Shown here in pieces: positions 2,338 through 59,434 of a stretch of 64,000 bases of DNA; position 1 is the first letter of the stretch, and each line of letters starts with the position of its first letter. A program made the position numbers and the translations under genes. Under the pieces are notes generated by a model. That model made no database searches and was not told where the DNA came from. It worked only from the letters and a program-made list of their open reading frames with translations. This DNA is from Candidatus Micrarchaeota archaeon (GTDB taxonomy: Archaea > Micrarchaeota > Micrarchaeia > Anstonellales > Bilamarchaeaceae). The stretch covers positions 101,979 through 165,978 of the forward strand of contig CAZPPT010000002.1 of the NCBI GenBank assembly GCA_964588555.1. The letters run 5' to 3'.

Positions 2338-2338
2338 C

Positions 2339-4773: not shown

Positions 4774-5840
4774 GTCATATGGCACAAAAACTGTTGGAAG
4801 CGATTGGAAGGTTGTTTTACAACCGCGAGTATATACGAATGCTTGACTACCGGATAAATACTGCCGGCCTGCACCGTTCTGCGGAGGAGTTTGCAGGCGT
4901 GCTCATCCTTGTCACGCTCCTAGGCGGCCTTGCAGCCACGCTGTTTGTGTTAGGTTCAGGCCAATTATCAGGGTCGCTTCAGGGAGTTGCAAATTCCCTC
5001 ATACGCGGTTTTCCTTATGCGCTTCTCGCACTTATTGTGTTTATCGTAATGCTTGTCTTGTCCTATTTTGGGGTAATCGTACTCACCATGTCGGTGCTTG
5101 CAATACAAGGGGATGCGCGACGAAACTCGCTTGAGACCGCGCTTCCTGATTTTCTACTGCTTGTGTCCGCAAACATAAAGGCAGGCATGCCCCTTGACCA
5201 GGCAATGTACCATGCCGCAAAGCCCGAATACGGCCTTATGGCAATAGAAGTGCAGGACATCATCAAACGCTCATTTAGCGGGGAATCGCTTGAAAACTCC
5301 CTTGATATGCTTGCAGAACGGTTTGACTCGCGGATCTTCAAACGGACGATCCTTCTTATAAAGCAGGCATCCGCAACTGGCGGCGAGGTGGCAGCGGTAC
5401 TTGAGCGGACATCGCAGGAAGTAAGAAACACGCTTCTTATCAAAAAGGAAGTTGCCGCATCGCTTATCCTCTATGAAATTTTCATATTATTTGCAGCGAT
5501 CGCAGGGACGCCGTTCCTGTTTGCAGTGTCCGGAAAGCTTATCGAGGTGTTTGAGAAGACGCCGGTCATATCGACAATACCTCAAAGCACAAGCGGGTTT
5601 GCAGGCCAGCTGCCGGGGATCGGGTTTACCGGCGTTGTCATCAGTTCAACTGAGTTTTTCTACTTTACCATACTTACCATATTGATTACGTCGCTCTTTT
5701 CATCATTTATTGTGGGGATTATCCGCAAGGGTACCAAGAACGAAGGTATAAAATACTTCCCGTTCGTATTAGGTGCGTCCTATGTGATGTTTGCGCTTGT
5801 AAACCTAGGGCTTAATGCAGTATTTACAACGATATTATAG
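4770..5840 (+). CDS. TadC/FlaJ C-half-like polytopic membrane protein
   Basis: Second T2SS-F-like repeat with the same TM-soluble-TM architecture. It overlaps the upstream gene by 4 nt. Confidence 0.55.
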   Translation: MSHMAQKLLEAIGRLFYNREYIRMLDYRINTAGLHRSAEEFAGVLILVTLLGGLAATLFVLGSGQLSGSLQGVANSLIRGFPYALLALIVFIVMLVLSYFGVIVLTMSVLAIQGDARRNSLETALPDFLLLVSANIKAGMPLDQAMYHAAKPEYGLMAIEVQDIIKRSFSGESLENSLDMLAERFDSRIFKRTILLIKQASATGGEVAAVLERTSQEVRNTLLIKKEVAASLILYEIFILFAAIAGTPFLFAVSGKLIEVFEKTPVISTIPQSTSGFAGQLPGIGFTGVVISSTEFFYFTILTILITSLFSSFIVGIIRKGTKNEGIKYFPFVLGASYVMFALVNLGLNAVFTTIL

Positions 5841-15252: not shown

Positions 15253-16479
15253 ATGCTCATCAGAAACGGCAACGTATTTTTCAATAATGAAGTGAGGCGG
15301 ACGGACCTTTTGATTGCTGATGGCACGATCAAAAAAATAGGGAGGCTCGAAACGAGCGAACGCGAGATGGAAGATGAAATTATCGATGCCCGCGGGCAAC
15401 TTCTCCTTCCGGGCCTTATAGACGTACATGTCCACCTCCGCGAGCCGGGCGATACGTATAAGGAGGATTTTGCAACTGGCAGCCGCGCGGCACTTGCAGG
15501 CGGAATCACCACAGTTATGGATATGCCAAACAATAGGGTTCCGACAATCACGGTGACTCGCTTAAGGGAAAAGGAAGAGCTCGCCAGAAAAAAATCGCTT
15601 TGTGATATCTTTTTCCATTTTGGATCAACAAACAATAATTTCGACCAGATACGCGCCGCAAAACCGCGGTCAATCAAGATATACATGAGCGAAACCACGG
15701 GAAATATGGCCGTTGATGAAAATGCATTTGTGAAACATTGCAACGAGTTCGACTCGAAAAAACCGATCGTAGTCCACGCTGAAGGTGAAAAGTTGGTTAA
15801 ACGGCTCGCCTCGCTTACGAAACGGAAATTGCATTTGGCACACACGACGGCAAAAAATGAGGTCGAAATCGTGAAATCGCACGGGTGGAGTGCGGAAGTG
15901 GCGCCCCATCACCTGTTCCTATCAAAAAAACATGCTGAAAAGTTGGGAAAACGGGCGCTTGTAAAACCGCCATTACGTGACGAGGCTGAGCGAAAGGCGC
16001 TCTGGGGCATGCTTGACACGATTGATTGCATTGCAACTGATCATGCGCCGCATACGCTTGAGGATAAGGAAGAAGGCGCATACGGGTTTCCCGGACTGGA
16101 AACGTCACTTGCGCTTATGCTCGATGCATACAATAAAAAAAATATATCGCTTGAATGGCTTGTAACACGCATGGCCATTAATCCTGCCAAGTTATTTGAT
16201 TTAAATGACCGCGGGGGGATTTCAATTGAAAAGAAAGCAGACCTCATTTTTGTTGATCCGAGGCATGCGTGGACGATTAAGGGCGAAGAGCTGCAAACAA
16301 AATGCAAATGGACGCCATTTGATCGCTGGCAGGTAAAAGGAAAGGTAATGCGCGTAATACGGGATGGAAAGCTTGTTTTTGAAGAAGGGGAATTTGTAGG
16401 CGAGAACCTAAAAAAGTGGGGTGAACGCAATGGTGAAAAAAACATCCGGCGGGTCGGGGGAAGCGACAGAGAAGAGTAA
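15253..16479 (+). CDS. pyrC: dihydroorotase
   Basis: Metal-binding HxH (GLIDVHVHLREPG), DHAPH, and the amidohydrolase-fold pattern. Confidence 0.8.
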   Translation: MLIRNGNVFFNNEVRRTDLLIADGTIKKIGRLETSEREMEDEIIDARGQLLLPGLIDVHVHLREPGDTYKEDFATGSRAALAGGITTVMDMPNNRVPTITVTRLREKEELARKKSLCDIFFHFGSTNNNFDQIRAAKPRSIKIYMSETTGNMAVDENAFVKHCNEFDSKKPIVVHAEGEKLVKRLASLTKRKLHLAHTTAKNEVEIVKSHGWSAEVAPHHLFLSKKHAEKLGKRALVKPPLRDEAERKALWGMLDTIDCIATDHAPHTLEDKEEGAYGFPGLETSLALMLDAYNKKNISLEWLVTRMAINPAKLFDLNDRGGISIEKKADLIFVDPRHAWTIKGEELQTKCKWTPFDRWQVKGKVMRVIRDGKLVFEEGEFVGENLKKWGERNGEKNIRRVGGSDREE

Positions 16480-17041
16480 CCTCAATAAAAAAGAGTTGCC
16501 ACCGGAACAACGTGAAGAACTGCTAAGCGTATTGAAAGCCCGTTTTGATAAATATATACATCGCCATGGAAGCATTGCATGGGCTGCCGTACAGGCACGG
16601 CTTAAAGCCGATCCTAAAAAACTGTGGTCACTTAACGAAATGGAACGAACTGGCGGTGAACCGGATGTTGTAGCTCATGATACAAAAACAGGCGAATACG
16701 TCTTTTATGATTGTTCAACGGAAAGCCCAAATGGCCGAAGGTCCCTCTGTTATGACCGTGAGGCGCTCAATTCAAGAAAGGAACATAAGCCACAAAATAG
16801 CGCACTTGAAATGGCGGCTTCCATGGGCATTGAACTTTTGACAGAGGCGCAATACCGAGAGTTGCAGAAGCTTGGAACGTTCGATACAAAAACATCGAGC
16901 TGGGTGAAAACACCGCCCCCCATTAGAAAACTCGGCGGTGCCCTCTTTTGTGATCGCCGCTACAGTCATGTTTTTGTCTATCACAACGGTGCGGAATCAT
17001 ATTACGCCGCAAGGGGTTTCCGTGGTGAGCTTCGAGTCTAA
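16421..17041 (+). CDS. conserved hypothetical protein (possibly DUF4256-like)
   Basis: 206-aa ORF overlapping the pyrC 3' end by 59 nt. Cys-containing YVFYDCSTESPNG...LFCDRRYSHVFVYHNG. Start codon uncertain. Confidence 0.35.
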   Translation: MNAMVKKTSGGSGEATEKSNLNKKELPPEQREELLSVLKARFDKYIHRHGSIAWAAVQARLKADPKKLWSLNEMERTGGEPDVVAHDTKTGEYVFYDCSTESPNGRRSLCYDREALNSRKEHKPQNSALEMAASMGIELLTEAQYRELQKLGTFDTKTSSWVKTPPPIRKLGGALFCDRRYSHVFVYHNGAESYYAARGFRGELRV

Positions 17042-17067
17042 TTTTGTATAGACGGTTTTTTGACAAT

Positions 17068-18243
17068 TCAAAACACAAGTGACGCAATCCACGGAAGCGC
17101 AATGAACGTGCCAATGCTTGCGCCGATGTTCGTATACATGACAACAAGAAGTATGCGCGTTACTTTGTTTTGTTCAAAATCCCGGTAGCTGTTGAGATTA
17201 TTGAGGCCTTCAAAATCTTTCACTTGAGGAAGGGACATCTTTGCCTGCGCAAGCCCTGAAAACCACCCTGCTGCAAGGAGCGGATGAAGCGTCGTAACGG
17301 GCGCACTTGCAAATGCCGCCGCAATGGCAATGGGATGCGCACGGGCAAGAAGCGCGCCAATCGCTGCCAGCGTGCCGGTTACAAGCGTCCACAAGATAAT
17401 CGTATTGAGGCCGGCAGTAACGCCCTGCGTAAGAAATGCATAACCGATCAAGCCAAGGACAAGAAGTGGGATAACAAGTGTTATAAGGTGCAGGCCCGGC
17501 CTTTCCTTTGGAACGGTGATTATTTCCGCAATCGAATAATCCTGTGCAATATGCGACGCAATACCGTCAACGTGGCCCGCGCCGACCACTGCGACGATCT
17601 TGTTGCCTGACAGGTCACGGATCTTGCGCGCAATAAAAAGGTCGCGTTCATCAATAAGAACCTTTTTAATGGTCGGAAAATCGCGCCCGAGCTTTTGCAA
17701 AAGCGCGCTTAGCGTGTCGTGCTCCTTTAATTTCTCGACAGTCTGTTCGTTGATCTCCTGCCTGTTTGGGGAAAAGAGGCCCCCCACAAGGTCGGCAAGG
17801 AAACGAACCTTTTCCCAAAGAGTAAGGAAATGAAACGCGCGCTTAAGCGTGATACGGACATCGCGGTCAAGAAGTGCAACGGGTACCTTGTTCCTGCTCG
17901 CCGTATCAATTGCCTCAAGCATCTCGGAACCGGGTTTCTCATGAAGCCGCGCGCCGATCTGCCGCTGAAAGTTCTTAAGGATAAGCGTAAGGAGAAATAC
18001 CCAGACCTGGCCGGTTTTTATGAGTTCCGCAACATTAAGCTCCTGGAATTTTTTTTCGTTCCGAAGTGCGTCATACCTGCCTGCGTCAAGCTCCACTCCC
18101 ACGACATCCGGCTTCTGTGCCTCGATGGTCGCGGCGACAAGCTCACGGGATTTTTTTGAAACGTGTGCGGTGCCGACAAGGATGATCTCCTTTCCATTAT
18201 AACTGACCCTTTTAAGTACCATGCCATTCGCCAAGTCATTCAA
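17068..18243 (-). CDS. TraB/PrgY-family protein
   Basis: LVGTAHVSKKS motif plus a C-terminal polytopic membrane domain. Confidence 0.6.
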   Translation of the reverse strand: MNDLANGMVLKRVSYNGKEIILVGTAHVSKKSRELVAATIEAQKPDVVGVELDAGRYDALRNEKKFQELNVAELIKTGQVWVFLLTLILKNFQRQIGARLHEKPGSEMLEAIDTASRNKVPVALLDRDVRITLKRAFHFLTLWEKVRFLADLVGGLFSPNRQEINEQTVEKLKEHDTLSALLQKLGRDFPTIKKVLIDERDLFIARKIRDLSGNKIVAVVGAGHVDGIASHIAQDYSIAEIITVPKERPGLHLITLVIPLLVLGLIGYAFLTQGVTAGLNTIILWTLVTGTLAAIGALLARAHPIAIAAAFASAPVTTLHPLLAAGWFSGLAQAKMSLPQVKDFEGLNNLNSYRDFEQNKVTRILLVVMYTNIGASIGTFIALPWIASLVF

Positions 18244-18661
18244 GTTTTACATGTATGAGGAGGCCGTCGTACGTAATGTTAAATCGCCGCAGTCCCGGAG
18301 AGGGCGTGTCAAGTATGACAGATTCCTCGAGTGGGAAACGCACCGTATCGACAATATCCGTATCGCCGCTTCTTGTAGATGCCTGGACAATGACTTCGCC
18401 GCCGCCCCCAAGGTTTCGCACCTCGACCTTCTTTACACGAGGAGGAATAAATATTTCCGCAACCACGGATGAATCCGTCCCCAGGTTTCCGACCGAATTT
18501 ATGAGGTATGCAAGACGGGTTGAAACAAGTTCCGCCTGCACTTGGTAAAGTTGTTCGTAGCTCTCAGTACTCTTTAGGTAAATAGTAAATAAAAGAGGGA
18601 TAAAAATAACGAGTATTGCCGCGATAATGACCATTAATTCAGTACTGATCTGCCCTTTCAT
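18236..18661 (-). CDS. pilin-like protein with class III signal peptide
   Basis: MKG|QISTELMVIIAAILVIFIPLLF. Confidence 0.5.
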   Translation of the reverse strand: MKGQISTELMVIIAAILVIFIPLLFTIYLKSTESYEQLYQVQAELVSTRLAYLINSVGNLGTDSSVVAEIFIPPRVKKVEVRNLGGGGEVIVQASTRSGDTDIVDTVRFPLEESVILDTPSPGLRRFNITYDGLLIHVKLE

Positions 18662-19800
18662 GGTTCTTCCCGCTCTCGTTTCTTGAGTAGTTTTTTCATG
18701 CTTTTCTTCTTTGATAAAACAGTGGTAAGCTCATCCACGACGCGATCGACTGCGGTTTGAAGGTCGTATTCCTCACTTGAAACGACAATGTGCTCCTTAT
18801 CTGCGGTAAGTGAAAGGTTGAGATGGTATACGGATTTCCCGCGCTTCGCATGCACGCTTACATCAGTTAATGAGAAAGACTTGGAAAATTTGGCGAGCTT
18901 TTCGCCGATTGTGTCTTTTATGTAATCATAACTTGCAAGGTCATCTTCACCAAGCCCGCTAATCACAAGAGGACGCTCATCCCTGCTTAGGGCCATAACT
19001 TCCTTAAAAAGATCAACTGCGGTCAGCACACCTGCCGGCTTTTTCCTTAGCAGAACAAGAATATGGGCGCTGTCATTCTGTACCATCTTTTGTGCTGCCT
19101 CCTGAAGCGATGCGCCTGCATCAATGGTAACGAGGTCGGGCCGCAAGAAATCTGAAATCCGGTGGTGGTCGGGCCGCCATATTTCCTTTATGAACTGTTC
19201 TCCTGCACGTCCCTTAGGCTCAGTAAATACAAGTGCAAGGTCGAGTGTTGAAAGCACGCCGACGGGTTGATCCTTGTCCATTACGACAAGATGGCGCGCG
19301 TTATATTCCTTCATGGCGCTTTTTACCTCACCGACGCTTGCATGGATGCCAATGGTGTATACTGGCGAGTTCATAAGTTCCGCCACTGCCTTTTTTGGAA
19401 TTGCGTTAAATGTAAGAAGGTCATTAATAAGCTCAATACGGGTGCTCAAACCAAGGAGCTTGTTGTTTCGCTCTTCAAATACCGGAAGTGCCTTGAAATG
19501 GCCTGCCATAAACGCATGAACGCGGTCAAGGATAGAGCTCGTTGGATAAAGGAATGGTGCCTTTACGCACACCGTGTCGCATTTCGTCTTGCTTACATCA
19601 GCAAGTCCAAGACGGATATTACGGTCATCAATAATCCCCTGGTACGCCTTGCCCTTCATGACAACAACAGTGGTTCCGGCGCGTACCACTTCGCCAAGGG
19701 CCTTTGACACAGGTTCATCCGAATCAAATACACGGGTTGATTTTATATCCATAGCCATACCTCCTTTTGCCATCCGCAAATATATAAATACATAATACAT
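18658..19800 (-). CDS. CBS-domain protein with C-terminal ribosome-hibernation-factor (HPF/RaiA)-like domain
   Basis: Repeated CBS-like segments. The last ~100 aa (ISGLGEDDLASYDYIKDTIGEKLAKF...SLTDVSVHAKRGKSVYHLNLSL...YDLQTAVDRVVDELTTVLSKKKS) align by eye to E. coli HPF (ITGNNVEITEALREFVTAKFAKL...VYVVLKVEK...MYAAIDGLIDKLARQLTKHKDK). Confidence 0.55.
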   Translation of the reverse strand: MYYVFIYLRMAKGGMAMDIKSTRVFDSDEPVSKALGEVVRAGTTVVVMKGKAYQGIIDDRNIRLGLADVSKTKCDTVCVKAPFLYPTSSILDRVHAFMAGHFKALPVFEERNNKLLGLSTRIELINDLLTFNAIPKKAVAELMNSPVYTIGIHASVGEVKSAMKEYNARHLVVMDKDQPVGVLSTLDLALVFTEPKGRAGEQFIKEIWRPDHHRISDFLRPDLVTIDAGASLQEAAQKMVQNDSAHILVLLRKKPAGVLTAVDLFKEVMALSRDERPLVISGLGEDDLASYDYIKDTIGEKLAKFSKSFSLTDVSVHAKRGKSVYHLNLSLTADKEHIVVSSEEYDLQTAVDRVVDELTTVLSKKKSMKKLLKKREREEP

Positions 19801-24513: not shown

Positions 24514-27342
24514 CTAGGCGGATAGAACCTTTTTCAAAAATTCCCCTGTATAACTTCGCTTGTTCCCTGCAAGCTCCTCAGGGGTACCGGTTGCAATAAT
24601 TTCGCCGCCCCCACTGCCGCCTTCTGGCCCGAGATCAATGATATAATCGGATGATTTGATCACATCTAAATTGTGCTCAATAATGAAAATCGAGTTGCCC
24701 TTGTCAACCAAGCGATTCAGTACTGCAATAAGCTTTTTCACATCCTCAAAGTGAAGGCCGGTTGTGGGCTCGTCAAGAATATATACGGTATGCCCCTTGT
24801 TTGACTTTGAAAGCTCGCGAGTGATCTTGATGCGCTGCGCTTCGCCGCCTGAAAGCGTGACTGAGGATTGCCCAAGCTTGATATAGCCAAGGCCGACATC
24901 GATTAACGTGCGAAGTTTGCGTTCGATGCGCGGAATGTTCTTGAAGAACTCATATGCCTCCTCGACACTCATGTCAAGGACATCTGCGATGGTCTTGCCC
25001 TTATATGTGACAAGAAGCGTTTCGGAATTGTACCGCTTCCCCTTGCACACCTCGCACTGAATATACACGTCTGGAAGGAAATTCATTTCAATCTTGATTT
25101 GTCCGTCGCCTCTGCAGTTTTCGCAGCGTCCGCCGAAGACGTTAAATGAGAAACGCCCAAGGTCGTAGCCAAGCTCCTTTGCCTCTTTTGTTGCCGCAAA
25201 CAGTTCGCGCATATAGTCAAACACCTTTGTGTAGGTCGCGGGGTTGCTTCGGGGGGTTCGCCCAATCGGCTCCTGGTCAATGTTGATGACTGCGTCAATC
25301 GGAACATTGTATGAAATACGCGCGTGCTTACCGACGCGAAGCACTGAGGAGTATATCGTTTTCATAAGCTGTGCATAGAGGACGTCGTGGACGAGTGTCG
25401 ACTTGCCACTCCCACTTACGCCGGTAATTGCGCAAATGACGTGCGTGGGGAGTTTTATATTTATTTTTTTGAGATTATGCTCCTCGACTCCTTCTAAGAA
25501 TATTGCCCCCTTTTGGATACGGCGTATTTTTGGTATGGGGATCGTGAGATTTCTTGAAAGATACTGGCCGGTAAGGCTTTTTGGATCCGTTTCGACATCA
25601 CGGGGCGTACCTTCTGCAACAATAGTGCCACCGTGAACGCCTGCGCCAGGGCCCATGTCAACAAGCCAATCAGCTGCACGCATCGTGTCCTCGTCATGTT
25701 CAACAACTAAGAGCGTGTTTCCCAAATCACGCAAGCGATGGAGCGTGTCGATCAATTTATGGTTGTCGCGCTGGTGTAGCCCGATTGACGGTTCGTCAAG
25801 CACATAAAGCACACCCATAAGGTTTGAGCCGATCTGTGTTGCAAGCCGGATGCGCTGTGCCTCGCCGCCTGAAAGCGTCCCCGCGCTTCTGGATAAAGTA
25901 AGGTAGCCGACGCCGACGTTTACAAGGAATGCAAGACGTGAATCGATTTCCCTTAGTATGAGGCGCGCAATTTCTTTTTCCTTATCCGTAAGCGTAATCG
26001 ACTTAAAAAAAGCATGTGTATCGACGATTGCCATCTCAGTAACATCGCTGATTGATTTTTCATTGACCCACACAAAGAGCACTTCCTTCTTAAGGCGCTT
26101 TCCGTTGCATGCCGGACAATCGCTTGAACGCATAAATTTCTCCATTTCTTCCCTTCGGTACTCGGATTCGGTCTGCTTGTACAAGCGCTCTGCCTGCGGT
26201 ATGACCCCTTCCCATCCGTTTTCCATATGCATGCTTGCGCCATTGCTCCATCTGCCGTAAAGCGGCTTGGTAATCCCGTACAATAATGCGTCAAGCTGCT
26301 TTTTGCCAAATTCAGACAGTGGCGTATCAAGATCAAAGCCCGCCTCCTTGCCAACGATACGCAATTGTTGGGCACGCCACGTTAAATCAACATTTCCATA
26401 GATTGCGAGTGCGCCCTCGCGTATTGTCTTGCGTTTGTCAGGGATGATAAGATCAGGATCAAACTCCTGCTTAAACCCTAACCCATGACACGCCTCACAC
26501 GCACCAAAGGGAGAGTTAAAGGAAAACATACGCGGCTGCAGTTCCTCAAAACCGATCTCGTGATCCGGGCACGTCGCAAGCGTGGTGAAGAGCTTTTCCC
26601 CCCATATTTCCCCTTGCTCGTAAAGCACAACTACAATACCTTTTGCAAGCACGGTTGCGCTTTCAAGTGCCTGGTGGAGGCGCGAAAGCGTTTGTTTGTC
26701 CTTAGCCACCTGGATTCGGTCGACGACAATTTCAATGGTGTGCTGCTTGTAACGGTCAAGCGTTAATTTCTCGTCAGTTTCCTTTATTTCGCCATTGACG
26801 CGCATACGTGTAAATCCTTGCTTTTTAAATTGGTCGCCGATCCGCTCGTAGGTCCCTTTTTTCTTCCGGATGACAGGTGAAAGTATTTGTATCCGCTTTC
26901 CGTCAAAGCGTTCGAGAACCTGGTCGCGAAGCTGTTCTATCGTTTGCGGCTTAAGCGGCTTTTCACATGCAGGGCAGTGCGGCGTGCCGATACGGGCAAA
27001 AAGGAGACGGAGATAGTCGTATATTTCAGTAACCGTGCCGACTGTTGAACGCGGGTTCTTTGAAGTCGTTTTCTGCTCAATTGAAATTGCAGGAGAAAGT
27101 CCGTCAATTGAATCAACATCCGGCTTATCCATGACGCCTAAGAATTGCCGTGCATATGCGGAGAGCGATTCGACATACCTGCGCTGCCCTTCAGCATAAA
27201 TGGTATCAAACGCAAGCGTTGACTTGCCCGACCCTGAAAGGCCGGTAATGACAATGAACTTGTCACGCGGCAGCGTAACGGTGATGTTTTTGAGATTGTG
27301 TTCTCTTGCGCCTCGTACGATTATGTCTTTCATAAAAGTCAA
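24514..27342 (-). CDS. uvrA: excinuclease ABC subunit A
   Basis: Two ABC modules with Walker A GLSGSGKSTLAFDT and GVSGSGKSTLV, signature LSGGEAQR twice, and zinc-finger Cys clusters. Confidence 0.9.
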   Translation of the reverse strand: MTFMKDIIVRGAREHNLKNITVTLPRDKFIVITGLSGSGKSTLAFDTIYAEGQRRYVESLSAYARQFLGVMDKPDVDSIDGLSPAISIEQKTTSKNPRSTVGTVTEIYDYLRLLFARIGTPHCPACEKPLKPQTIEQLRDQVLERFDGKRIQILSPVIRKKKGTYERIGDQFKKQGFTRMRVNGEIKETDEKLTLDRYKQHTIEIVVDRIQVAKDKQTLSRLHQALESATVLAKGIVVVLYEQGEIWGEKLFTTLATCPDHEIGFEELQPRMFSFNSPFGACEACHGLGFKQEFDPDLIIPDKRKTIREGALAIYGNVDLTWRAQQLRIVGKEAGFDLDTPLSEFGKKQLDALLYGITKPLYGRWSNGASMHMENGWEGVIPQAERLYKQTESEYRREEMEKFMRSSDCPACNGKRLKKEVLFVWVNEKSISDVTEMAIVDTHAFFKSITLTDKEKEIARLILREIDSRLAFLVNVGVGYLTLSRSAGTLSGGEAQRIRLATQIGSNLMGVLYVLDEPSIGLHQRDNHKLIDTLHRLRDLGNTLLVVEHDEDTMRAADWLVDMGPGAGVHGGTIVAEGTPRDVETDPKSLTGQYLSRNLTIPIPKIRRIQKGAIFLEGVEEHNLKKINIKLPTHVICAITGVSGSGKSTLVHDVLYAQLMKTIYSSVLRVGKHARISYNVPIDAVINIDQEPIGRTPRSNPATYTKVFDYMRELFAATKEAKELGYDLGRFSFNVFGGRCENCRGDGQIKIEMNFLPDVYIQCEVCKGKRYNSETLLVTYKGKTIADVLDMSVEEAYEFFKNIPRIERKLRTLIDVGLGYIKLGQSSVTLSGGEAQRIKITRELSKSNKGHTVYILDEPTTGLHFEDVKKLIAVLNRLVDKGNSIFIIEHNLDVIKSSDYIIDLGPEGGSGGGEIIATGTPEELAGNKRSYTGEFLKKVLSA

Positions 27343-27472
27343 TCCGTTAAAAGTGAGTATTCACTTCTTTTTGGAGGCGTTATAATAAAAAACAACGCCA
27401 AACAAAGGTTTTAACCCATCTACAACAATCATCAATCACAAAGAATATAAATTTTGAAGCATTGATGGAACT

Positions 27473-29437
27473 TTATAAATACGTCCTCAGTTCCGCAGCC
27501 TCATCCCGTAACCGGATTGCCTCTTCAAATTGCAAGCTCTCTGCGGCAATCTGCATCTGCGTTTCAAGCTCAACAATCTTCTTATGCAGTTCCTCTTTAG
27601 AAAGGGTTGTTTTTCCCTTCTTGGTAATCTTACGAATCGGGCTTGCCTCAATTTCAGGGTCAAGCGCAACCTGGGATATATTTTTGCGAATTGTCCGTGG
27701 GGTAATGCCGTGCTTTTTGTTATATTCAATCTGCTTTTCACGCCTTATTTTTGTAGTTTCAACTGCCCCTTTGATCGAGCGCGTAATCGTATCTGCATAG
27801 AGGATGACCCGCCCGCGCTCATTGCGTGCCGCCCTTCCTATAGTCTGGATAAGTGAACGTTCATTCCGTAAAAATCCTTCCTTGTCCGCATCAAGTATTG
27901 CAACAAGGCTTACCTCTGGCAGATCCAATCCTTCACGCAAGAGATTGACACCAACAAGGCAGTCAAACACCCCTAAGCGCAATTGCTGGATGAGTTTATT
28001 ACGCTCAATCGTATCGATCTCAGAATGAAGGTACTTAGCCTTTACATCCTTCTCATTTAAGTAGCGTGCAATCTCCTCAGCCATCTTCTTGGTGAGTGTG
28101 GTAACAAGAACGCGTCCTTTTTGTGCAACCTCTTTACGAATTTCTTCGATTGCATTATTTACCTGGTTTGTAAGTGGCCGGATCTCGACACTTGGGTCTA
28201 GGAGGCCGGTTGGCCTGATGATTTGTTCAACAACTTGCCCCGAAATTTTCAATTCATACTCAGCAGGAGTTGCAGATACGAAGATGACATGATTGAAATA
28301 CTTTTGAACTTCTTCAAATTTAAGAGGCCGGTTGTCAAGCGCACTTGGGAGCCTAAACCCATAGTCTACCAGGGTCTGCTTTCGGGAGCGATCGCCCTTG
28401 TACATGCCGTGGAGTTGGGGGACAGTAACGTGTGATTCGTCGATAACAAGAAGAAAGTCCTTTGGAAAGTAATCAAGCAGGCAAAAGGGAGGTTGCCCTT
28501 CGCTTCGGTTTTCAAAATGCCGCGAATAGTTCTCAATGCCATTACAGTAGCCAAGTTCCTGGATCATCTCCAAATCATAGAGCGTGCGCTGCTTTAGGCG
28601 GTGTGATTCAAGTAATTGAAGTTGTGGCAAGCGTTCTTCAAGCTCTGCCTTAATGGAAGTTACTGCATTGGCAAGTTCATCATCACTGACCATATAGTGC
28701 TTTGCAGGGAAAATAAGGAGCTGGTCGCTCCTAAATTTTTCAGTATAGTTGATCGGGTCTAGGGTGCGGATGGACTCAATTTCATCACCAAAATACTCAA
28801 TGCGGATGATGTCCTCATCATAGCCAAGGATAAGGTCGATAACGTCGCCCTTTACCCGAAAACGGCCTGGCACAAGCGCTGCGTCATTTCGTTCGTATTG
28901 TAGGTCGACAAGGCGGGAAATGAGTTCGCTGCGGACAATTGATTTACCTTTTTTAACAAGGATGCTGAATTTTTCAAAATTCGCAGGCGAACCTAAGCCA
29001 TAGATGCATGAGACGCTCGCAACAATAATAACGTCCCGACGAGACAAAAGTGACGCGGTCGCGCGCAAGCGAAGCTGCTCTATTTTCTCATTAACCTTTG
29101 AATCCTTCTCGATATACGTATCGGACGCAGGCAGGTAGCTTTCAGGTTGGTAATAGTCATAATAGGAAACGAAATATTCAACCCGATTATTTGGAAATAA
29201 CTCCTTAAACTCCAGAAAAAGTTGTGCTGCAAGCGTCTTATTGTGCGCAAGCACGAGTGTTGGCATTTTAAGCTGCCTAATGACGTGTGAGACGGTAAAG
29301 GTTTTACCTGAGCCGGTAATGCCAAGAAGCGTCTGAAGGCTATGCTTTTGCGCCCCTTCCACGAGCTTCTTTATTGCATCAGGCTGCGAGCCCATCGGCA
29401 TCTTGTCAGTAACAATCTCAAAATCCATGTGCATCAA
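27473..29437 (-). CDS. uvrB: excinuclease ABC subunit B
   Basis: Helicase motif I LLGITGSGKTFT, DESH box (VIDESHVT), and the C-terminal UvrB/UvrC-interaction helix. Confidence 0.9.
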   Translation of the reverse strand: MMHMDFEIVTDKMPMGSQPDAIKKLVEGAQKHSLQTLLGITGSGKTFTVSHVIRQLKMPTLVLAHNKTLAAQLFLEFKELFPNNRVEYFVSYYDYYQPESYLPASDTYIEKDSKVNEKIEQLRLRATASLLSRRDVIIVASVSCIYGLGSPANFEKFSILVKKGKSIVRSELISRLVDLQYERNDAALVPGRFRVKGDVIDLILGYDEDIIRIEYFGDEIESIRTLDPINYTEKFRSDQLLIFPAKHYMVSDDELANAVTSIKAELEERLPQLQLLESHRLKQRTLYDLEMIQELGYCNGIENYSRHFENRSEGQPPFCLLDYFPKDFLLVIDESHVTVPQLHGMYKGDRSRKQTLVDYGFRLPSALDNRPLKFEEVQKYFNHVIFVSATPAEYELKISGQVVEQIIRPTGLLDPSVEIRPLTNQVNNAIEEIRKEVAQKGRVLVTTLTKKMAEEIARYLNEKDVKAKYLHSEIDTIERNKLIQQLRLGVFDCLVGVNLLREGLDLPEVSLVAILDADKEGFLRNERSLIQTIGRAARNERGRVILYADTITRSIKGAVETTKIRREKQIEYNKKHGITPRTIRKNISQVALDPEIEASPIRKITKKGKTTLSKEELHKKIVELETQMQIAAESLQFEEAIRLRDEAAELRTYL

Positions 29438-31029
29438 CTAAGTGGCATACGCCTTATTTCTTTCTGGCGCAATAGCCTATTATATGAAATTGCAAATCGG
29501 TGCGCCTCGTTTCTGACCTGCTCAAGAAGAAGAAGCCCGCGGGATTTTTGGTCAAGAAGGATCGGTGCTGAATCAGGCCGTACATATATGGACTCAAACT
29601 CCTTTGCAAGGCCGATACACGGGACATTCACGTTCAATTCCTCAAGACTCTGGAGCGCAAAACGTAGCTGCGGCGAACCACCATCAATGACTATTAAATC
29701 GGGGAGCGCTTTTTTCTCGTCAAGTAAGCGCCTATAGCGTCGATACACGACCTCACGAATCGATGCAAAATCATCCTGATAAGATACAGTCCTAATTTTG
29801 AAGCGTCGATACTGGGATTTATTTGCTTTTCCATTCCTGAACTGGACCATCGACCCGACGATAAACTGATCTCCAGTATTCGAAATATCAAAACACTCGA
29901 TGACGTGCGGAATGGTTGGAAGCGATAAGGCGTCTTGAAGTTCCTGCAATGCAGGGTATTCTGAGACAAGCTGCATCTGTGCATTCTTATATGCAATGGC
30001 AAGGAGCTCCTTTTTTGTTCCTTTTTGTGGGACTGTAATGGAGATAGTTGAATTTCCCTGATTTTCCTTCTTAAGTGTCGAAAGTGTCTCAAGCACAAGG
30101 GACTGGTTAGGTAGCTCGGATGCAAGAAGTAGTTCCTGCGGGATCGGGTTTGAGGCATAATAGCGGATAATAAAATCCTCAAAGAACTGCTCGCCTACTT
30201 CTTGTTTTGAATAGAGGAACGGCTGGAGTTGGGTGATGACCCCCTTCTGGATCTTGAGGACGACAAGTGCGATTTGAGTTCTCGAGCTATCGATTACAAT
30301 AACATGTTGGTCGTACGGAATTGAAGTTTCGACAACCTGTTTTTCCAAAAGCCCTTCAAGCGCCTGGTAGTTGTCGCGATATTCACGCGCCTTTTCATAA
30401 TTTTTATTTTTTGATGCGTTGTTCATCCCTTCTTTATACTGGGCGATTAGCTCGTTTACGTTCCCGTTAAGGACCCGGACCGCGTCGCGGACATTTTTAC
30501 CATACTCATCACTCGAAATGCGCGCAATGCACGGGGCAGAACACATCCCAATGTCAAAATAAAGGCAGGGCCGCTTTGGCATAGTGGTGCAGCTTCGTAT
30601 CTTATAGACGCGTTTAATGACTTCCATAAGCCTGTTTCGGTATTGGGCTGAAGTAAACGGCCCAAAACGCTTTCCCTTGTCTTTTTTGTTTCGTGAGACA
30701 AAAATACGCGGGAATTGACCATCAGAAAGCATGATCCACGATAAACGTTCGGCATCCTTAAGCTGGATATTAAATGGCGGCCGGTGATTTCTAATAAGAC
30801 GAGCTTCCAAAATCCATGCCTCGCGCTCGTTGCGAACAGCAATTGTTTCAAGATGTGCAATATTCGCCACAAGTTCAGCCGTTTTTCCCGTTTGTGTACC
30901 GTTAAAATAGGATGAAACGCGTTTCTTTAGGTCCTTTGCCTTGCCGATGTATAATATTTCGCCCTCGCTATTCTTATAGATATAGCAGCCCGGCTCGTGC
31001 GGAATAGTATAGAGAGAAAAGTCAATCAC
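29434..31029 (-). CDS. uvrC: excinuclease ABC subunit C
   Basis: GIY-YIG N-terminus (PGCYIYKNSEGEILYIGKAKDLKKR), Cys-rich UvrBC domain, and C-terminal HhH. It overlaps uvrB by 4 nt. Confidence 0.85.
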   Translation of the reverse strand: MIDFSLYTIPHEPGCYIYKNSEGEILYIGKAKDLKKRVSSYFNGTQTGKTAELVANIAHLETIAVRNEREAWILEARLIRNHRPPFNIQLKDAERLSWIMLSDGQFPRIFVSRNKKDKGKRFGPFTSAQYRNRLMEVIKRVYKIRSCTTMPKRPCLYFDIGMCSAPCIARISSDEYGKNVRDAVRVLNGNVNELIAQYKEGMNNASKNKNYEKAREYRDNYQALEGLLEKQVVETSIPYDQHVIVIDSSRTQIALVVLKIQKGVITQLQPFLYSKQEVGEQFFEDFIIRYYASNPIPQELLLASELPNQSLVLETLSTLKKENQGNSTISITVPQKGTKKELLAIAYKNAQMQLVSEYPALQELQDALSLPTIPHVIECFDISNTGDQFIVGSMVQFRNGKANKSQYRRFKIRTVSYQDDFASIREVVYRRYRRLLDEKKALPDLIVIDGGSPQLRFALQSLEELNVNVPCIGLAKEFESIYVRPDSAPILLDQKSRGLLLLEQVRNEAHRFAISYNRLLRQKEIRRMPLS

Positions 31030-31074: not shown

Positions 31075-31872
31075 CTACCTGGGAAACCCAAGCGCCGCTT
31101 TCTTCATTTTATATGCAAACTCCATAAGGAGTCTGAGGTTCTCGATATCTGCACTATTGTAGCGGATAAGCGTTTCAAGCGCTCCGCTGTCGCCTTTCTT
31201 ATACTTACGCCAGAGACGAACTGCATCAAATCCAGTAAGGTGTGCTATATCGCCATCACGCTCAAACCCGAATTCTTTCTCAATCTTCTTAAGCCCGCCC
31301 TTGTACCCGAGTGATCGAAGAACAAACCGTAAATCAATATGAAGTAAGGGGATTTGGATTTCAGGAACTTGTGCGCGCAAAAATGGGATATCAAACATCG
31401 TCCCGTTAAATGTTATGACTGCTTTATATGGCGCGAGCGCATGCGGGAGTTCGTCGATATTTTTTCCTTGTACGAACGTTTTGGTCGTTTTTCCATCATA
31501 TAAGCCAACAACAGTTACCTCGCTATGGTGCGGCACAAGACCGGTTGTCTCAATATCTAAAAATACAGTTTTCTCTGCAAAGTGGGGCCATGAGCGCCAT
31601 GTCTCTTTTGATGGAATAACTGATGAAAAATAGGTGCTGTTTAATTCATGGAGCGCCACTTTTGATGAGAAAATTTCGGGGATAAATCGGCTAAATTTCG
31701 CATGGTTCTGACATGTGTCAAGAAACTGATCCCATGTTCTGATCCCTTCTTCCCATAATTTTAATTCAGTTTTTTGTCCTACTGACGGAAGATGAATGAA
31801 TGTGTTTTCGAGCATGTGACTGTTTATCAGACAAATGATAAAAAGCTTTATGCGCTCTGAAGCGATTTCCAT
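31075..31872 (-). CDS. RNase H-like (DEDD-type) 3'-5' exonuclease domain protein, YprB/COG3359-like
   Basis: FLDIETTGL (Exo I) and HSEVTVVGLYDG, as seen in exonuclease family members. Confidence 0.5.
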   Translation of the reverse strand: MEIASERIKLFIICLINSHMLENTFIHLPSVGQKTELKLWEEGIRTWDQFLDTCQNHAKFSRFIPEIFSSKVALHELNSTYFSSVIPSKETWRSWPHFAEKTVFLDIETTGLVPHHSEVTVVGLYDGKTTKTFVQGKNIDELPHALAPYKAVITFNGTMFDIPFLRAQVPEIQIPLLHIDLRFVLRSLGYKGGLKKIEKEFGFERDGDIAHLTGFDAVRLWRKYKKGDSGALETLIRYNSADIENLRLLMEFAYKMKKAALGFPR

Positions 31873-33083
31873 TCAACTAATCCAAAAAAGAAAAGAGGCC
31901 GTCGAACGCGATCAACGATTCCTGGATGAGTCAAGATTATTTTTTTTCGTGCCTTAAAATTCTTAAACTGTGAAATACCTTTTTTGGTACCCCCGATTTC
32001 AATAATCGTATCGGCAAAAAGATAATCTGGTGTCTTGCCTCCACGTGTAGATTTTAAATAAAAATACTCCTGACCTGAAAAGCGGAGTGTTTCAACAAAA
32101 AAATCCTCACGAAGTGCGCCAATACAGTCGTCTTTACTTTTGTAAAGTAATCTAAATGGAAGGGAAAGAAGTATTTTAGGTTCCTTAAGTACATTTGTTC
32201 CGGTAGGGAATACCTGTGTAAGCACAAACGACTGTTCAAGCAGTTTTACATATTTTTCTGCCTTATATTTTGTAATACCCAAATTGCGGCTTAGTGATGT
32301 ATAATTTAGATCTTCTGCAGGTGATTTACCAATAAATGAAACGATATTTCTGATGTCGCGGATTTCTTCTGGTACAATAAGACCTGCTTTTGGCAGATCA
32401 TTTGCAATGATACGTTCAAGCATAGTACTAAATAAGGACATATAATCACTTTTTCCAAGAGTGAATGGATAACTCCTTCCGACTAGGTACGATTCGAATA
32501 GTGTCTCGTACGTAAGCACTTTTCCATAATATTCCCGTGATTTTTTCTCCTCAAACAGGTGAGCAAAAGAAAATTCTGGAATAATTTCGCCTTTTTCGAA
32601 TGTAATAAATTCTCTAAAGGTAAATGGCGGACACAATACAATTCGTACGCGTCGCGAAAGGTCAACTGCCGCCTGTGATAGTGAAAGTGCAACTGAGCCA
32701 CTAAAGATAACCATAATTGCAAGTACATCAAATATTTTTTTTAGATCTTCCTGAAAACGAGGATAAAACTGTATTTCATCTAAAATAAGATATCGGACCC
32801 CGCGACTTTCTAATTCCCTTGCAAGTTCGTAGAGTGACGGAACGGAACTGTTGTCAAGTGAAACGTAGAACGCGTTTTCCGTTTCAGCCAAGAGCTGCTT
32901 TAAAAGAATTGTTTTTCCGACACCTCGCGGTCCAACAAGACCGATAAAAATACGCTCGTTAAGGTGAGAACGAAGATACGAATAGATTGATCGCTTTTTT
33001 GTATAGCGCTTTCCTTCTTCGCGCGCCTTTTCGTTGAGTTCGATTAATTCCTGCTGCATAGAAATATAATAAATAGAAAACAT
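31848..33083 (-). CDS. AAA-superfamily ATPase of the archaeal ATPase/DUF4143 type
   Basis: Walker A LVGPRGVGKTILLKQ and Walker B YLILDEIQ. Confidence 0.6.
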   Translation of the reverse strand: MFSIYYISMQQELIELNEKAREEGKRYTKKRSIYSYLRSHLNERIFIGLVGPRGVGKTILLKQLLAETENAFYVSLDNSSVPSLYELARELESRGVRYLILDEIQFYPRFQEDLKKIFDVLAIMVIFSGSVALSLSQAAVDLSRRVRIVLCPPFTFREFITFEKGEIIPEFSFAHLFEEKKSREYYGKVLTYETLFESYLVGRSYPFTLGKSDYMSLFSTMLERIIANDLPKAGLIVPEEIRDIRNIVSFIGKSPAEDLNYTSLSRNLGITKYKAEKYVKLLEQSFVLTQVFPTGTNVLKEPKILLSLPFRLLYKSKDDCIGALREDFFVETLRFSGQEYFYLKSTRGGKTPDYLFADTIIEIGGTKKGISQFKNFKARKKIILTHPGIVDRVRRPLFFFGLVEWKSLQSA

Positions 33084-41100: not shown

Positions 41101-41143
41101 TTATCATATTTATACCCTTTAAATATTTAATCATATGTTACGG

Positions 41144-51960: not shown

Positions 51961-52153
51961 CATGAATATGCAACTCGTCTTCTTTTGTGAATGAACCAAT
52001 GCCCCGATATAACCCAAAACCGCTCTTCTTGACTTTTTTAACCGCTATTTCAACTGGCTCATTTGGATGAATATTGAGAAGTTCTACGAGCTGTTTTGGG
52101 ATAGTAACCATAAGAGAACCTCCAACACTTACGGTCTTAGATATGAATTCCAT
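51956..52153 (-). CDS. AbrB/SpoVT-type antitoxin-like protein
   Basis: GGSLMVTIPKQLVELLNI swapped-hairpin motif. It overlaps the PIN gene start. Confidence 0.5.
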   Translation of the reverse strand: MEFISKTVSVGGSLMVTIPKQLVELLNIHPNEPVEIAVKKVKKSGFGLYRGIGSFTKEDELHIHD

Positions 52154-52347
52154 TTAATCACCTGTTTAATTTAATTAAACAAAGTATTTAATAAACTAGT
52201 GGTAATCAGACCATATGTTGAAAAAGTATTTCATTATGAAAGCACCGATGAAGGAAAATACAAAAAAGGAAAATCCGACAACAATGGCATAATACAAATT
52301 ATGCCTGCGACAGCAACCTAAATCATAAAAATACGCTCGTCAAACTG

Positions 52348-52509
52348 CTCTCAAACGCAGTTAATCCGTTTCTTATTCCCCGATGTGCAAAATAAATCGT
52401 AATTTAATTTCTCATTTATTGCAGCGGATAAAACAAGAAAAAAGATGCCGAGCAGAATAAGCGCAAGCGCTTGTAGCTCAGCCACCTTGAAAAATTTTTT
52501 ATCTTCCAT
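52348..52509 (-). CDS. candidate 53-aa single-TM micro-protein (below the ORF-track length cutoff)
   Basis: MEDKKFFKVAELQALALILLGIFFLVLSAAINEKLNYDLFCTSGNKKRINCV, with SD-like AAGGTGA 8 nt upstream. Confidence 0.25.
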
Positions 52510-52583
52510 AAACAAATTCACCTTTTAATCTTTCTTCTACTTTGCCTACCAATAACGCAGTAAAGGAAAAACAATAAATGACG

Positions 52584-53894: not shown

Positions 53895-53967
53895 ATAAAG
53901 CTTACGCTTTTCCGTAAGAAATTAACTATTTTTCTTACGCTTTTCCGTAAGTTTTATCCAACGGCAA

Positions 53968-59421: not shown

Positions 59422-59434
59422 GTCAATCAGCAAA

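What the first reader, a model, noticed from the sequence alone, without database searches (positions are those of the whole stretch)
18658..19800. CBS-domain protein fused to an HPF/RaiA-like ribosome-hibernation domain
The C-terminal ~100 aa align convincingly by eye to bacterial hibernation promoting factor (KLAKF / VSVHAKRGK / YDLQTAVDRVVDELTTVLSKKKS versus KFAKL / VYVVLKVEK / MYAAIDGLIDKLARQLTKHKDK). Upstream are adenosyl-ligand-sensing CBS pairs. An energy-sensing CBS module coupled to a ribosome-silencing domain in an archaeal context would be an unusual regulatory architecture.
Basis: partly seen in the sequence, partly recalled or inferred. Interest (0 to 1): 0.5.

Follow-up and report, generated by a model that had tools for sequence, protein, structure and literature searches.

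The report
Archaeal CBS–HPF ribosome hibernation factor (HibA/AHA)
This gene really does encode four nucleotide-sensing CBS domains fused to a bacterial-type ribosome-hibernation (HPF/RaiA) domain, but the architecture was published in 2025-26 as the widespread archaeal hibernation factor HibA/AHA, so this is an ordinary orthologue from a Micrarchaeota (DPANN) genome.

Summary
The minus-strand ORF 18658-19800 (most likely start ATG 19752, 364 aa) has four CBS stretches. Its C-terminal domain passes Pfam's threshold for Ribosomal_S30AE (31-34 bits against 23.7).

A profile of that domain hits E. coli HPF at E = 6e-10. AlphaFold models it with high confidence as β-α-β-β-β-α, and the 31 best Foldseek PDB matches are all HPF/RaiA/pY proteins.

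The whole protein aligns end to end with Pyrococcus abyssi HibA, which has been solved on the ribosome (PDB 9SR9; profile E = 2e-40). This includes the extended CBS3 loop that enters the peptidyl-transferase centre in HibA and AHA.

HibA (Madru et al., Nat Commun 2026) and AHA (Souza et al., bioRxiv 2026) describe this fusion in about half of archaeal genomes. IMG already labels homologues in this clade [quoted passage not shown].

Orthologues occur in 52 Micrarchaeota species genomes within a conserved SepF–ScpA–HibA–pilin-like–amidohydrolase block.

The one difference I found is that the HPF domain is compact and more bacterial-like. It lacks the β2-β3 hairpin insertion of P. abyssi HibA.

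Interest is low.

The parts
18658..19752 (-). Coding sequence of the HibA/AHA-type protein: 364 aa from the most likely start ATG 19752, with the stop codon at 18658-18660. The maximal ORF extends to 19800, and the alternative start at 19773 gives the 371-aa public gene call.
   Evidence: ORF list. Homologue alignment starts at 'M[DE]IK'. Upstream sequence. P0001 is 100% identical at 371 aa.
19760..19764 (-). GGAGG Shine-Dalgarno-like motif, 7 nt upstream of ATG 19752.
   Evidence: Read directly from the sequence. Its function is inferred.
18991..19752 (-). N-terminal CBS tetrad (four CBS domains forming two Bateman modules), about aa 1-254 of the 364-aa protein.
   Evidence: Pfam CBS E 4e-25 with 4 stretches. 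The AlphaFold model (pLDDT 88) shows four β-α-β-β-α units. Foldseek matches Sri, Dri, AMPKγ, MJ1225 and SSO3205 CBS tetrads at E 1e-17 to 1e-11. G/D residues in the CBS3 and CBS4 'G-h-h-S/T-x-x-D' motifs are invariant.
19165..19215 (-). Extended flexible loop after the last helix of CBS3 (KGRAGEQFIKEIWRPDH), equivalent to the 'PTC loop' of HibA and 'loop 3' of AHA.
   Evidence: It aligns to P. abyssi HibA residues 190-207. pLDDT is below 50 in the model at residues 185-199 of the 371-aa numbering. The role of the loop in the homologues is from PMC13324472 and PMC12934967.
18661..18987 (-). C-terminal HPF/RaiA-like domain (β-α-β-β-β-α) with a long last helix and a Lys/Arg-rich tail.
   Evidence: Pfam PF02482 at 34.4 bits, above the 23.7 cut-off. 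Profile against PDB: E. coli HPF at 6e-10. hhalign to E. coli HPF gives 95.5% probability. AlphaFold pLDDT 91.6. The top 31 Foldseek hits are all HPF/RaiA/pY, TM 0.6-0.78.
18236..18661 (-). Downstream 141-aa ORF with a class III (archaeal pilin-type) signal-peptide-like N-terminus. Its start overlaps the hibA stop (ATGA). It is a conserved neighbour, but a functional link is not established.
   Evidence: ORF list. Weak Pfam Class_IIIsignal hit. It lies directly downstream on the same strand in 50 of 52 related loci.

Best explanation
The gene encodes the Micrarchaeota orthologue of the archaeal ribosome hibernation factor HibA (also called AHA).

**Inferred mechanism, by homology.** When energy is low or growth stops, the C-terminal HPF/RaiA domain binds the small ribosomal subunit in the mRNA/tRNA channel at the A and P sites, as bacterial HPF does. 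The N-terminal CBS tetrad sits on the large subunit. Its long CBS3 loop can reach into the peptidyl-transferase centre.

Because one polypeptide bridges both subunits, it would hold 70S ribosomes together in an inactive, nuclease-protected state. The CBS3/CBS4 pocket would bind adenine nucleotides, AMP more tightly than ATP, which would link the factor to energy status.

**Shown here:** the two-module architecture, both folds, end-to-end homology to ribosome-bound HibA, the presence of the CBS3 loop, the conserved nucleotide-site motifs, and conservation across the phylum.

**Shown only for homologues in the literature:** ribosome binding sites, AMP/ATP binding, translation inhibition, and the deletion phenotypes.

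**Inferred for this protein:** all biochemical activity.
For: Domain and fold evidence:
- Pfam CBS x4 and S30AE are above threshold. 21 of 29 clade members hit S30AE individually.
- The C-terminal profile hits only HPF/RaiA-type proteins at the top of the PDB list.
- AlphaFold models are confident. Foldseek gives HPF/RaiA for the C-terminal domain and ribosome-binding CBS tetrads (Sri, Dri) plus AMPKγ for the N-terminal module.

Homology to characterised HibA:
- Collinear full-length alignment to P. abyssi HibA chain 9sr9_H: phmmer E 1.2e-15, profile E 2.2e-40 over positions 8-354 of 364, BLASTP 22% identity with E 1e-15.
- A second solved CBS+HPF protein (9l96_a) matches in both modules.
- The CBS3 loop aligns to the HibA PTC loop.
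- G and D of the CBS3 and CBS4 ribose-binding motifs are invariant. This matches nucleotide binding at the CBS3/4 interface in HibA and AHA.

Family placement:
- Outside the clade, the nearest relatives of both the full-length profile and the C-terminal profile are other 360-400 aa CBS+HPF fusion proteins.
- A rough neighbour-joining tree of CBS modules puts the clade among fusion proteins (82/100). CBS-only tetrads separate from them (77/100).

Context and literature:
- Distant fusion relatives lie next to ribosomal protein genes and the SBDS-exosome cluster.
- Functional data for the family: PMC13324472 and PMC12934967.
Against: - Identity to the characterised HibA is only 22%.
- The C-terminal domain on its own barely matches the P. 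abyssi HibA C-terminal domain (hhalign probability 4%). It lacks the 5-6 residue β2-β3 hairpin insertion present in P. abyssi HibA, 9l96_a and several other archaeal members.
- The CBS3 loop is conserved in length and position but not in sequence.
- The local gene neighbourhood (ScpA, SepF, pilin-like ORF, amidohydrolase) has no link to translation.
- No experiment exists for any DPANN member.
- Even for P. abyssi HibA, AMP or ATP did not measurably change ribosome binding, so the energy-sensing step is unproven for the whole family.
Confidence: 0.85

Rival explanations
1. It is an independent, convergent fusion. A Micrarchaeota CBS tetrad became joined to a separately acquired, bacterial-type HPF domain. 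The protein would then work like HibA/AHA without descending from the same fusion event.
For: The C-terminal domain is much closer in sequence to E. coli HPF (hhalign 95.5%, E 1.4e-8) than to the P. abyssi HibA C-terminal domain (4%). It also lacks the β2-β3 insertion of P. abyssi HibA.
Against: - It shares the archaeal 'I-S-G-L-x-x-E/D' β1-α1 segment, which has a 3-residue insertion relative to bacterial HPFs.
- With the C-terminal profile, archaeal CBS+HPF fusions outside the clade score better (E 1e-9 to 3e-7) than bacterial-type ~100-aa HPFs (1e-6 to 5e-5).
- The CBS module groups with those of other fusion proteins.
- The alignment to HibA is collinear through the domain junction.
- Several other archaeal fusion proteins also lack the hairpin insertion.
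Confidence: 0.07
2. It is a CBS-tetrad transcriptional or metabolic regulator, like HhpR (the CM-3 family) or generic 'CBS domain-containing' signal proteins. On this reading the C-terminal α/β domain serves another purpose, such as binding a different RNA or protein.
For: IMG calls some homologues 'predicted transcriptional regulator'. NCBIfam gives a weak HhpR hit of 30 bits. The HPF fold resembles dsRBD-like folds, which appear as weak Foldseek hits at E > 0.07.
Against: - The HhpR score is far below its cut-off (30 against 520 bits).
- HhpR-type proteins are stand-alone tetrads without an HPF domain.
- The C-terminal domain's sequence and fold matches are specific to ribosome-binding HPF/RaiA proteins.
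- The best full-length PDB match is ribosome-bound HibA.
Confidence: 0.04
3. It is a degenerate or repurposed HPF domain that keeps the fold but no longer silences ribosomes. For example, it could be a scaffold in a reduced-genome symbiont.
For: There is no direct functional data. The PTC-loop sequence is not conserved with HibA. DPANN genomes are reduced and often rewire functions (general knowledge).
Against: - The gene is retained at 31-55% identity in 52 species genomes of a phylum with small genomes.
- Basic residues are invariant or nearly so in the HPF domain (K33, K48, K51, K95 of the domain alignment).
- A Lys/Arg-rich tail is conserved.

This pattern is what purifying selection on an RNA-binding surface would produce.
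Confidence: 0.04

Closest known systems
HibA (Pyrococcus abyssi PAB0961 / Thermococcus barophilus; Madru et al., Nat Commun 2026, PMC13324472; PDB 9SR9-9SRF, 9T7H), the same family as AHA (Haloferax volcanii HVO_2384; Souza et al., bioRxiv 2026, PMC12934967)
   Same: Both have four tandem CBS domains followed by a C-terminal β-α-β-β-β-α HPF/RaiA domain in a protein of about 360-400 aa. Both have an extended loop at the CBS3/CBS4 boundary, canonical nucleotide-site motifs in CBS3 and CBS4, and a long last helix with a basic tail. The alignment is collinear over the full length.
   Different: - Identity is only 22%.
- The HPF domain is more compact and lacks the 5-6 residue β2-β3 hairpin insertion. 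It is recognisably bacterial-like in sequence, which is why Pfam detects it.
- The loop sequence differs.
- The host is a DPANN (Micrarchaeota) organism, and no DPANN member has been tested experimentally.
Bacterial short HPF / RaiA (YfiA, pY), Pfam PF02482, e.g. E. coli HPF (PDB 6H4N, 2RQL, 4V8H)
   Same: The fold and sequence family of the C-terminal ~100 aa match: Pfam above threshold, profile E 6e-10, TM 0.6-0.78. The presumed binding site in the 30S decoding channel would also be the same.
   Different: The bacterial proteins are stand-alone (~95-115 aa) or carry a C-terminal dimerisation domain (long HPF). None has an N-terminal CBS tetrad. This protein scores below the NCBIfam equivalog cut-off (21-26 against 40.9 bits) and has the archaeal 3-residue insertion after β1.
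Stand-alone CBS-tetrad hibernation factors SriA-D (Methanosarcina acetivorans, PMC13454478; PDB 9ZNF/9ZNG/9ZNI) and ARC-A/ARC-P (Methanolobus, 10.64898/2026.01.19.700304); also Dri (Pyrobaculum, PDB 9E7F)
   Same: All have a homologous CBS-tetrad module that binds ribosomes, and these are strong sequence and structure matches to the N-terminal module.
   Different: Those factors have no HPF/RaiA domain. Dri is two fused tetrads, and Sri/ARC act as separate proteins. The literature reports their distribution as largely exclusive with HibA/AHA.
AMPK γ subunit (eukaryotic energy sensor)
   Same: It has the same CBS-tetrad fold, with adenylate sites at the CBS3/CBS4 junction (Foldseek E ~1e-15; literature).
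   Different: It is part of a kinase heterotrimer, with no ribosome-binding domain and no extended CBS3 loop.

Membership tests
HibA / AHA (archaeal CBS-tetrad + HPF hibernation factor) | N-terminal module of four tandem CBS domains (about 260 aa) | tested here: met
   Pfam CBS with 4 stretches, E 4e-25. The AlphaFold model shows four CBS units. Foldseek matches CBS tetrads.
HibA / AHA (archaeal CBS-tetrad + HPF hibernation factor) | C-terminal HPF/RaiA-like domain with β-α-β-β-β-α topology | tested here: met
   PF02482 at 31-34 bits, above the gathering cut-off of 23.7. The C-terminal model has pLDDT 91.6 and exactly this topology. The top 31 Foldseek hits are HPF/RaiA/pY.
HibA / AHA (archaeal CBS-tetrad + HPF hibernation factor) | Full-length sequence homology to an experimentally characterised member | tested here: met
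   9sr9_H (P. abyssi HibA): phmmer E 1.2e-15; clade profile E 2.2e-40 as a single stretch covering 8-354 of 364 positions; BLASTP E 1e-15 at 22% identity.
HibA / AHA (archaeal CBS-tetrad + HPF hibernation factor) | Extended loop in or after CBS3 that inserts into the peptidyl-transferase centre | tested here: inconclusive
   A loop of nearly the same length is present at the aligned position and is predicted to be flexible. Its sequence is not conserved with HibA, and insertion into the PTC cannot be tested here.
HibA / AHA (archaeal CBS-tetrad + HPF hibernation factor) | Adenine-nucleotide binding at the CBS3/CBS4 interface | not testable with these tools
   The motifs GVLSTLD (CBS3) and GVLTAVD (CBS4) are present, and their G and D residues are invariant across 48 clade members. 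Binding itself needs ITC or a structure. Kd values exist only for P. abyssi HibA.
HibA / AHA (archaeal CBS-tetrad + HPF hibernation factor) | Two archaeal-specific insertions in the HPF domain relative to bacterial HPF/RaiA | tested here: inconclusive
   The 3-residue insertion after β1 ('ISGLxxED') is present. The 5-6 residue β2-β3 hairpin insertion seen in P. abyssi HibA and 9l96_a is absent, as it is in some other archaeal fusion proteins. The paper's figure defining the two insertions could not be viewed. [quoted passage not shown]
HibA / AHA (archaeal CBS-tetrad + HPF hibernation factor) | Binds 70S ribosomes, inhibits translation and preserves ribosomes in stationary phase | not testable with these tools
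   Shown only for P. abyssi / T. barophilus HibA and H. volcanii AHA.
Bacterial short HPF / YfiA (NCBIfam TIGR00741, PRK10470 equivalogs) | Score above the equivalog cut-off; stand-alone protein of about 95-115 aa | tested here: not met
   TIGR00741 scores 21.4-26.1 bits against a cut-off of 40.9, and PRK10470 scores 17.8-21.1 against 125. The domain is fused to a 254-aa CBS module.
Bacterial long HPF (lHPF) | C-terminal dimerisation domain after the HPF core | tested here: not met
   No Pfam family other than CBS, S30AE and a sub-threshold TCAD7 hit was found at E <= 10. The protein ends 17 residues after the last helix's KKK motif.
HhpR / CM-3 CBS-tetrad transcription factor | NCBIfam NF053603 above cut-off; stand-alone tetrad | tested here: not met
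   30.3 bits against a cut-off of 520. An HPF domain is present.
Sri / ARC / Dri CBS-only hibernation factors | CBS tetrad(s) without an HPF domain | tested here: not met
   An HPF domain is present. The CBS module groups with fusion-type modules rather than CBS-only tetrads in a rough NJ tree (77-82/100).

The most novel reading that the evidence does not exclude
The Micrarchaeota clade may be a distinct compact subtype of HibA. Its near-bacterial HPF domain and adenylate-binding CBS tetrad could let these host-dependent DPANN cells park their ribosomes when host-supplied nucleotides or energy run out, for example when detached from the host. The conserved downstream pilin-like gene could be co-regulated with that switch. 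Nothing here excludes this reading, and nothing specifically supports it beyond conservation and synteny.
Probability: 0.1. Interest if true: 0.5.

Novelty: already known. Interest (0 to 1): 0.2.

Why it matters
The result confirms that a reader working from raw sequence alone correctly spotted a real and biologically important architecture: an energy-sensing module fused to a ribosome-silencing module. That architecture has since been solved on ribosomes and shown genetically to preserve 70S ribosomes in two archaeal model organisms, so this locus opens no new question.

Its residual value is small. It documents that the factor is conserved across Micrarchaeota, a reduced-genome symbiotic lineage, in a compact bacterial-like form. 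That form may be useful for rooting the HPF-domain phylogeny, where the choice between inheritance from LUCA and early horizontal transfer is still disputed between the two papers. It could also provide a small, well-behaved construct for biochemistry.

Tried and rejected
- **Foldseek with the full-length model.** It returned only CBS tetrads. No HibA chain appeared among the 50 listed hits; I did not establish whether those entries are in that library, which stops at 2026-04-08. I therefore modelled and searched the C-terminal domain separately.
- **Source of PDB 9L96.** This is a second solved CBS+HPF chain. The literature search gave only irrelevant hits, so its organism is not stated here.
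- **Naming the source organism through the exact protein cluster.** No name or accession was returned. The phylum assignment rests on the homologues' record titles.
- **Window genome in the species-representative collection.** It is not present (best match 44% identity).
- **Explicit statement that Micrarchaeota carry HibA.** The text says only 'all major lineages' and lists 130 occurrences of the name Micrarchaeota in its genome tables. The per-lineage heat map is a figure and could not be read.
- **Rfam and tRNA scans of the window.** Both found nothing.
- **Second CBS or HPF gene in the window.** None was found.
- **Transcription-factor reading (HhpR).** Rejected on score and architecture.
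- **Operon-based functional link to the downstream pilin-like ORF.** I considered this but do not claim it. The whole five-gene block is syntenic across the phylum, so adjacency is not specific evidence.
- **NJ tree of CBS modules.** It is rough: BLOSUM62 distances, a small and biased sample of CBS-only tetrads, and no model selection. I use it only as supporting evidence.
Full report
**What is in the sequence.** An ORF occupies 18658..19800 on the minus strand and encodes 380 aa. Its first 16 codons are probably not translated. Homologues begin at the position of Met17 with 'M[DE]IK', and a GGAGG motif at 19764-19760 sits 7 nt upstream of that ATG at 19752. The public gene call for the identical protein (P0001, 371 aa) uses Met10. 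I take 18658..19752 (364 aa) as the gene.

**Checking the observation.** Pfam finds four CBS stretches (E 4e-25). It also finds Ribosomal_S30AE at residues 292-367, scoring 31.1 bits against a gathering cut-off of 23.7. The C-terminal 106 residues alone score 34.5 bits. NCBIfam's bacterial HPF/YfiA equivalog models match in the same place but below their cut-offs.

A profile of the C-terminal ~110 residues from 29 members of the clade (A2) hits E. coli HPF at E 6e-10 to 2.5e-9. The top fifteen entries of that PDB list are all HPF, RaiA, protein Y or their homologues. Scanned individually, 21 of the 29 clade members hit PF02482.

AlphaFold2 models the whole protein with mean pLDDT 88 as four CBS units followed by β-α-β-β-β-α. 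It models the C-terminal domain alone with pLDDT 91.6 and the same topology. The 31 best Foldseek hits for the C-terminal model in the PDB are all HPF/RaiA/pY proteins (TM 0.6-0.78, rmsd 2.3-4.4 Å). The full model matches CBS tetrads, including the ribosome-bound Sri and Dri factors and AMPKγ.

**What it is.** A literature search shows that this architecture was described in 2025-26.

- Madru et al. (PMC13324472; preprint 10.1101/2025.10.11.676729) found HibA on hibernating Pyrococcus abyssi ribosomes. It has four CBS domains (residues 1-269) linked to an HPF/RaiA-like β-α-β-β-β-α domain (270-392). They detected it in 47% of 4026 archaeal genomes 'in all major lineages'.
- Souza et al. (PMC12934967) independently described the Haloferax volcanii orthologue as AHA and found 3,160 homologues across 17 archaeal phyla.

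The window protein aligns to the deposited P. abyssi HibA chain (9sr9_H) collinearly from end to end:

| Method | Result |
|---|---|
| phmmer | E 1.2e-15 |
| Clade profile | E 2.2e-40, one stretch covering 8-354 of 364 profile positions |
| BLASTP | 22% identity, E 1e-15 |

A second solved CBS+HPF chain (9l96_a) matches in both modules.

The long loop that enters the peptidyl-transferase centre in HibA ('PTC loop', residues 190-207) and in AHA ('loop 3') has a counterpart here. It lies at the aligned position, is nearly the same length, and is predicted to be disordered.

The ribose-binding motifs of CBS3 (GVLSTLD) and CBS4 (GVLTAVD) carry the only invariant G/D pairs in the CBS module across 48 clade members. 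Nucleotides bind at the CBS3/CBS4 junction in HibA (one AMP or ATP, Kd 12 µM for AMP) and in AHA (two AMP).

**Relatives and context.** All named homologues come from Micrarchaeota MAGs. A scan of species-representative genomes found the gene in 52 genomes. Their record titles name Micrarchaeota or Micrarchaeota lineages (Micrarchaeia, Bilamarchaeaceae, Anstonellales, 'Ca. ainarchaeum'), apart from one titled only 'archaeon', at 31-44% identity. The rest of the window is consistent with an archaeal genome: an archaeal-type pilus ATPase with two membrane platform proteins, CDC48, a β-CASP nuclease, NFACT, HMG-CoA synthase, and a UvrABC set.

The neighbourhood SepF> <ScpA | HibA> pilin-like ORF> <amidohydrolase is conserved. 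The pilin-like ORF lies directly downstream in 50 of 52 loci, ScpA lies divergently upstream in 50 of 52, the amidohydrolase is present in 38 and SepF in 31. Because the whole block is syntenic, I do not read a functional link into it.

IMG already annotates several proteins of this clade as 'CBS domain-containing protein/ribosome-associated translation inhibitor RaiA', so routine pipelines see the fusion. Outside the clade, the best matches to both the full-length profile and the C-terminal profile are other 360-400 aa proteins. Pfam confirms these as CBS, or CBS plus S30AE. One of them lies immediately after a proteasome-SBDS-exosome-L37ae cluster and another lies next to S17e. That fits a translation-related role and the reported HibA-aSBDS partnership.

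**How this member differs.** The C-terminal domain is much more like bacterial HPF than like the P. abyssi HibA C-terminal domain (hhalign 95.5% probability against 4%). An alignment of C-terminal domains shows that the Micrarchaeota proteins lack a 5-6 residue insertion in the β2-β3 hairpin. That insertion is present in P. abyssi HibA, 9l96_a and several other archaeal members. The Micrarchaeota proteins do share the archaeal 'ISGLxxED' segment, which has three extra residues after β1 compared with bacterial HPFs.

This raised the possibility of an independent fusion, but three results argue against it:

- Archaeal fusion proteins outside the clade score better against the C-terminal profile than the two ~100-aa hits whose sequences have the bacterial HPF form.
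- A rough neighbour-joining tree of CBS modules groups the Micrarchaeota clade with other fusion proteins (82/100). It separates CBS-only tetrads from fusion proteins (77/100).
- The alignment to HibA runs straight through the domain junction.

I rate an independent origin at about 7%. [quoted passage not shown] If those loops include the hairpin insertion, which I could not confirm from the text held, a member without it would plausibly still work.

**Most likely mechanism.** By homology, the C-terminal HPF domain lodges in the 30S mRNA/tRNA channel at the A and P sites. The CBS disc occupies tRNA positions on the 50S, with its CBS3 loop able to reach the PTC. The single polypeptide clamps the subunits into an inactive, protected 70S. 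Adenylate binding at CBS3/4 ties this to energy state.

- The architecture, folds, loop and motifs are shown here.
- Ribosome binding, translation inhibition, AMP preference and the stationary-phase phenotypes are shown only for the P. abyssi / T. barophilus and H. volcanii proteins.
- A regulatory effect of nucleotides on ribosome binding is unproven even for those proteins.

**Rivals.** A transcription-factor role of the HhpR type is rejected on score (30 against 520 bits) and on architecture. A repurposed, non-ribosomal HPF fold is unlikely. The gene is retained across a reduced-genome phylum, and basic positions in the HPF domain are invariant or nearly so, along with a Lys/Arg-rich tail.

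**Verdict.** The finding is real and correctly interpreted, but it is an orthologue of a family that is now published, structurally solved and recognised by annotation pipelines. I rate novelty as already known and interest as low (0.2). The only new detail is the compact, bacterial-like HPF domain of the Micrarchaeota clade and the conserved syntenic block around it.

Noticed in passing
window 18236-18661 (-); loci L002-L052: A 141-aa ORF with a class III (archaeal pilin-type) signal-peptide-like N-terminus lies directly downstream of the hibA-like gene, on the same strand, in 50 of 52 Micrarchaeota genomes. In the window its ATG overlaps the hibA stop codon (ATGA), and its own stop overlaps the start of the next gene. 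The wider block SepF / ScpA / HibA / pilin-like / amidohydrolase is syntenic across the phylum.
   Followed up: partly
window 16421-18243: A TraB/PrgY/GumN-family gene (17068-18243, -) and a DUF4256 gene (16421-17041, +) sit between the pilin-like ORF and the amidohydrolase. Neither was found at that position in any of the 52 related loci, which suggests a lineage-specific insertion into the conserved block.
   Followed up: partly
window 35931-44458 (-): Three consecutive large ORFs (1183, 554 and 1104 aa) have no Pfam match at E <= 0.001.
   Followed up: no
window 58129-63987 (-): Four consecutive ORFs (467, 625, 415 and 456 aa) on one strand have no Pfam match. The last one runs close to the window end.
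   Followed up: no
window 24514-31029 (-): A complete bacterial-type UvrA-UvrB-UvrC nucleotide-excision-repair gene set lies in one row. It is followed by an RNase_H_2-superfamily gene at 31075-31872.
   Followed up: no
window 490-5840 (+) and small ORFs to ~8150: An archaeal type IV pilus/archaellum-like assembly locus: a T2SSE ATPase and two T2SSF membrane proteins, preceded by one unassigned 534-aa ORF and followed by several small ORFs without Pfam hits. It is possibly related to the pilin-like ORF next to hibA.
   Followed up: no
window 52001-54000; 52584-53894 (-) and 31848-33083 (-): The lowest-GC stretch of the window (0.34 against about 0.47) coincides with an AAA_14 + DUF4143 ATPase gene. 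A second gene with the same architecture lies at 31848-33083, within the window's second-lowest-GC region (0.40-0.43). This may be mobile or recently acquired DNA.
   Followed up: no
window 45357-46358 (-): A 333-aa ORF matches only the N-terminal and middle part of NFACT, a homologue of the ribosome quality-control factor (profile positions 8-315 of 456). This is another ribosome-associated function in the window.
   Followed up: no
L055/L056 4001-5152 and L054 4001-5140: Distant CBS+HPF fusion relatives from outside the Micrarchaeota clade lie in translation-related neighbourhoods. One follows a proteasome-α / SBDS / Rrp4 / Rrp41 / Rrp42 / L37ae cluster, and another is adjacent to ribosomal protein S17e. 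SBDS is the factor reported to co-occupy hibernating ribosomes with HibA.
   Followed up: partly
proteins P0007, P0008, P0065; P0288: Precomputed Pfam labels give PF02604 (PhdYeFM antitoxin) on three clade members, presumably a weak hit on the C-terminal α/β domain. A Sulfuracidifex protein of 265 aa (P0288) appears to be a half-size version, with two CBS domains plus an HPF domain.
   Followed up: no
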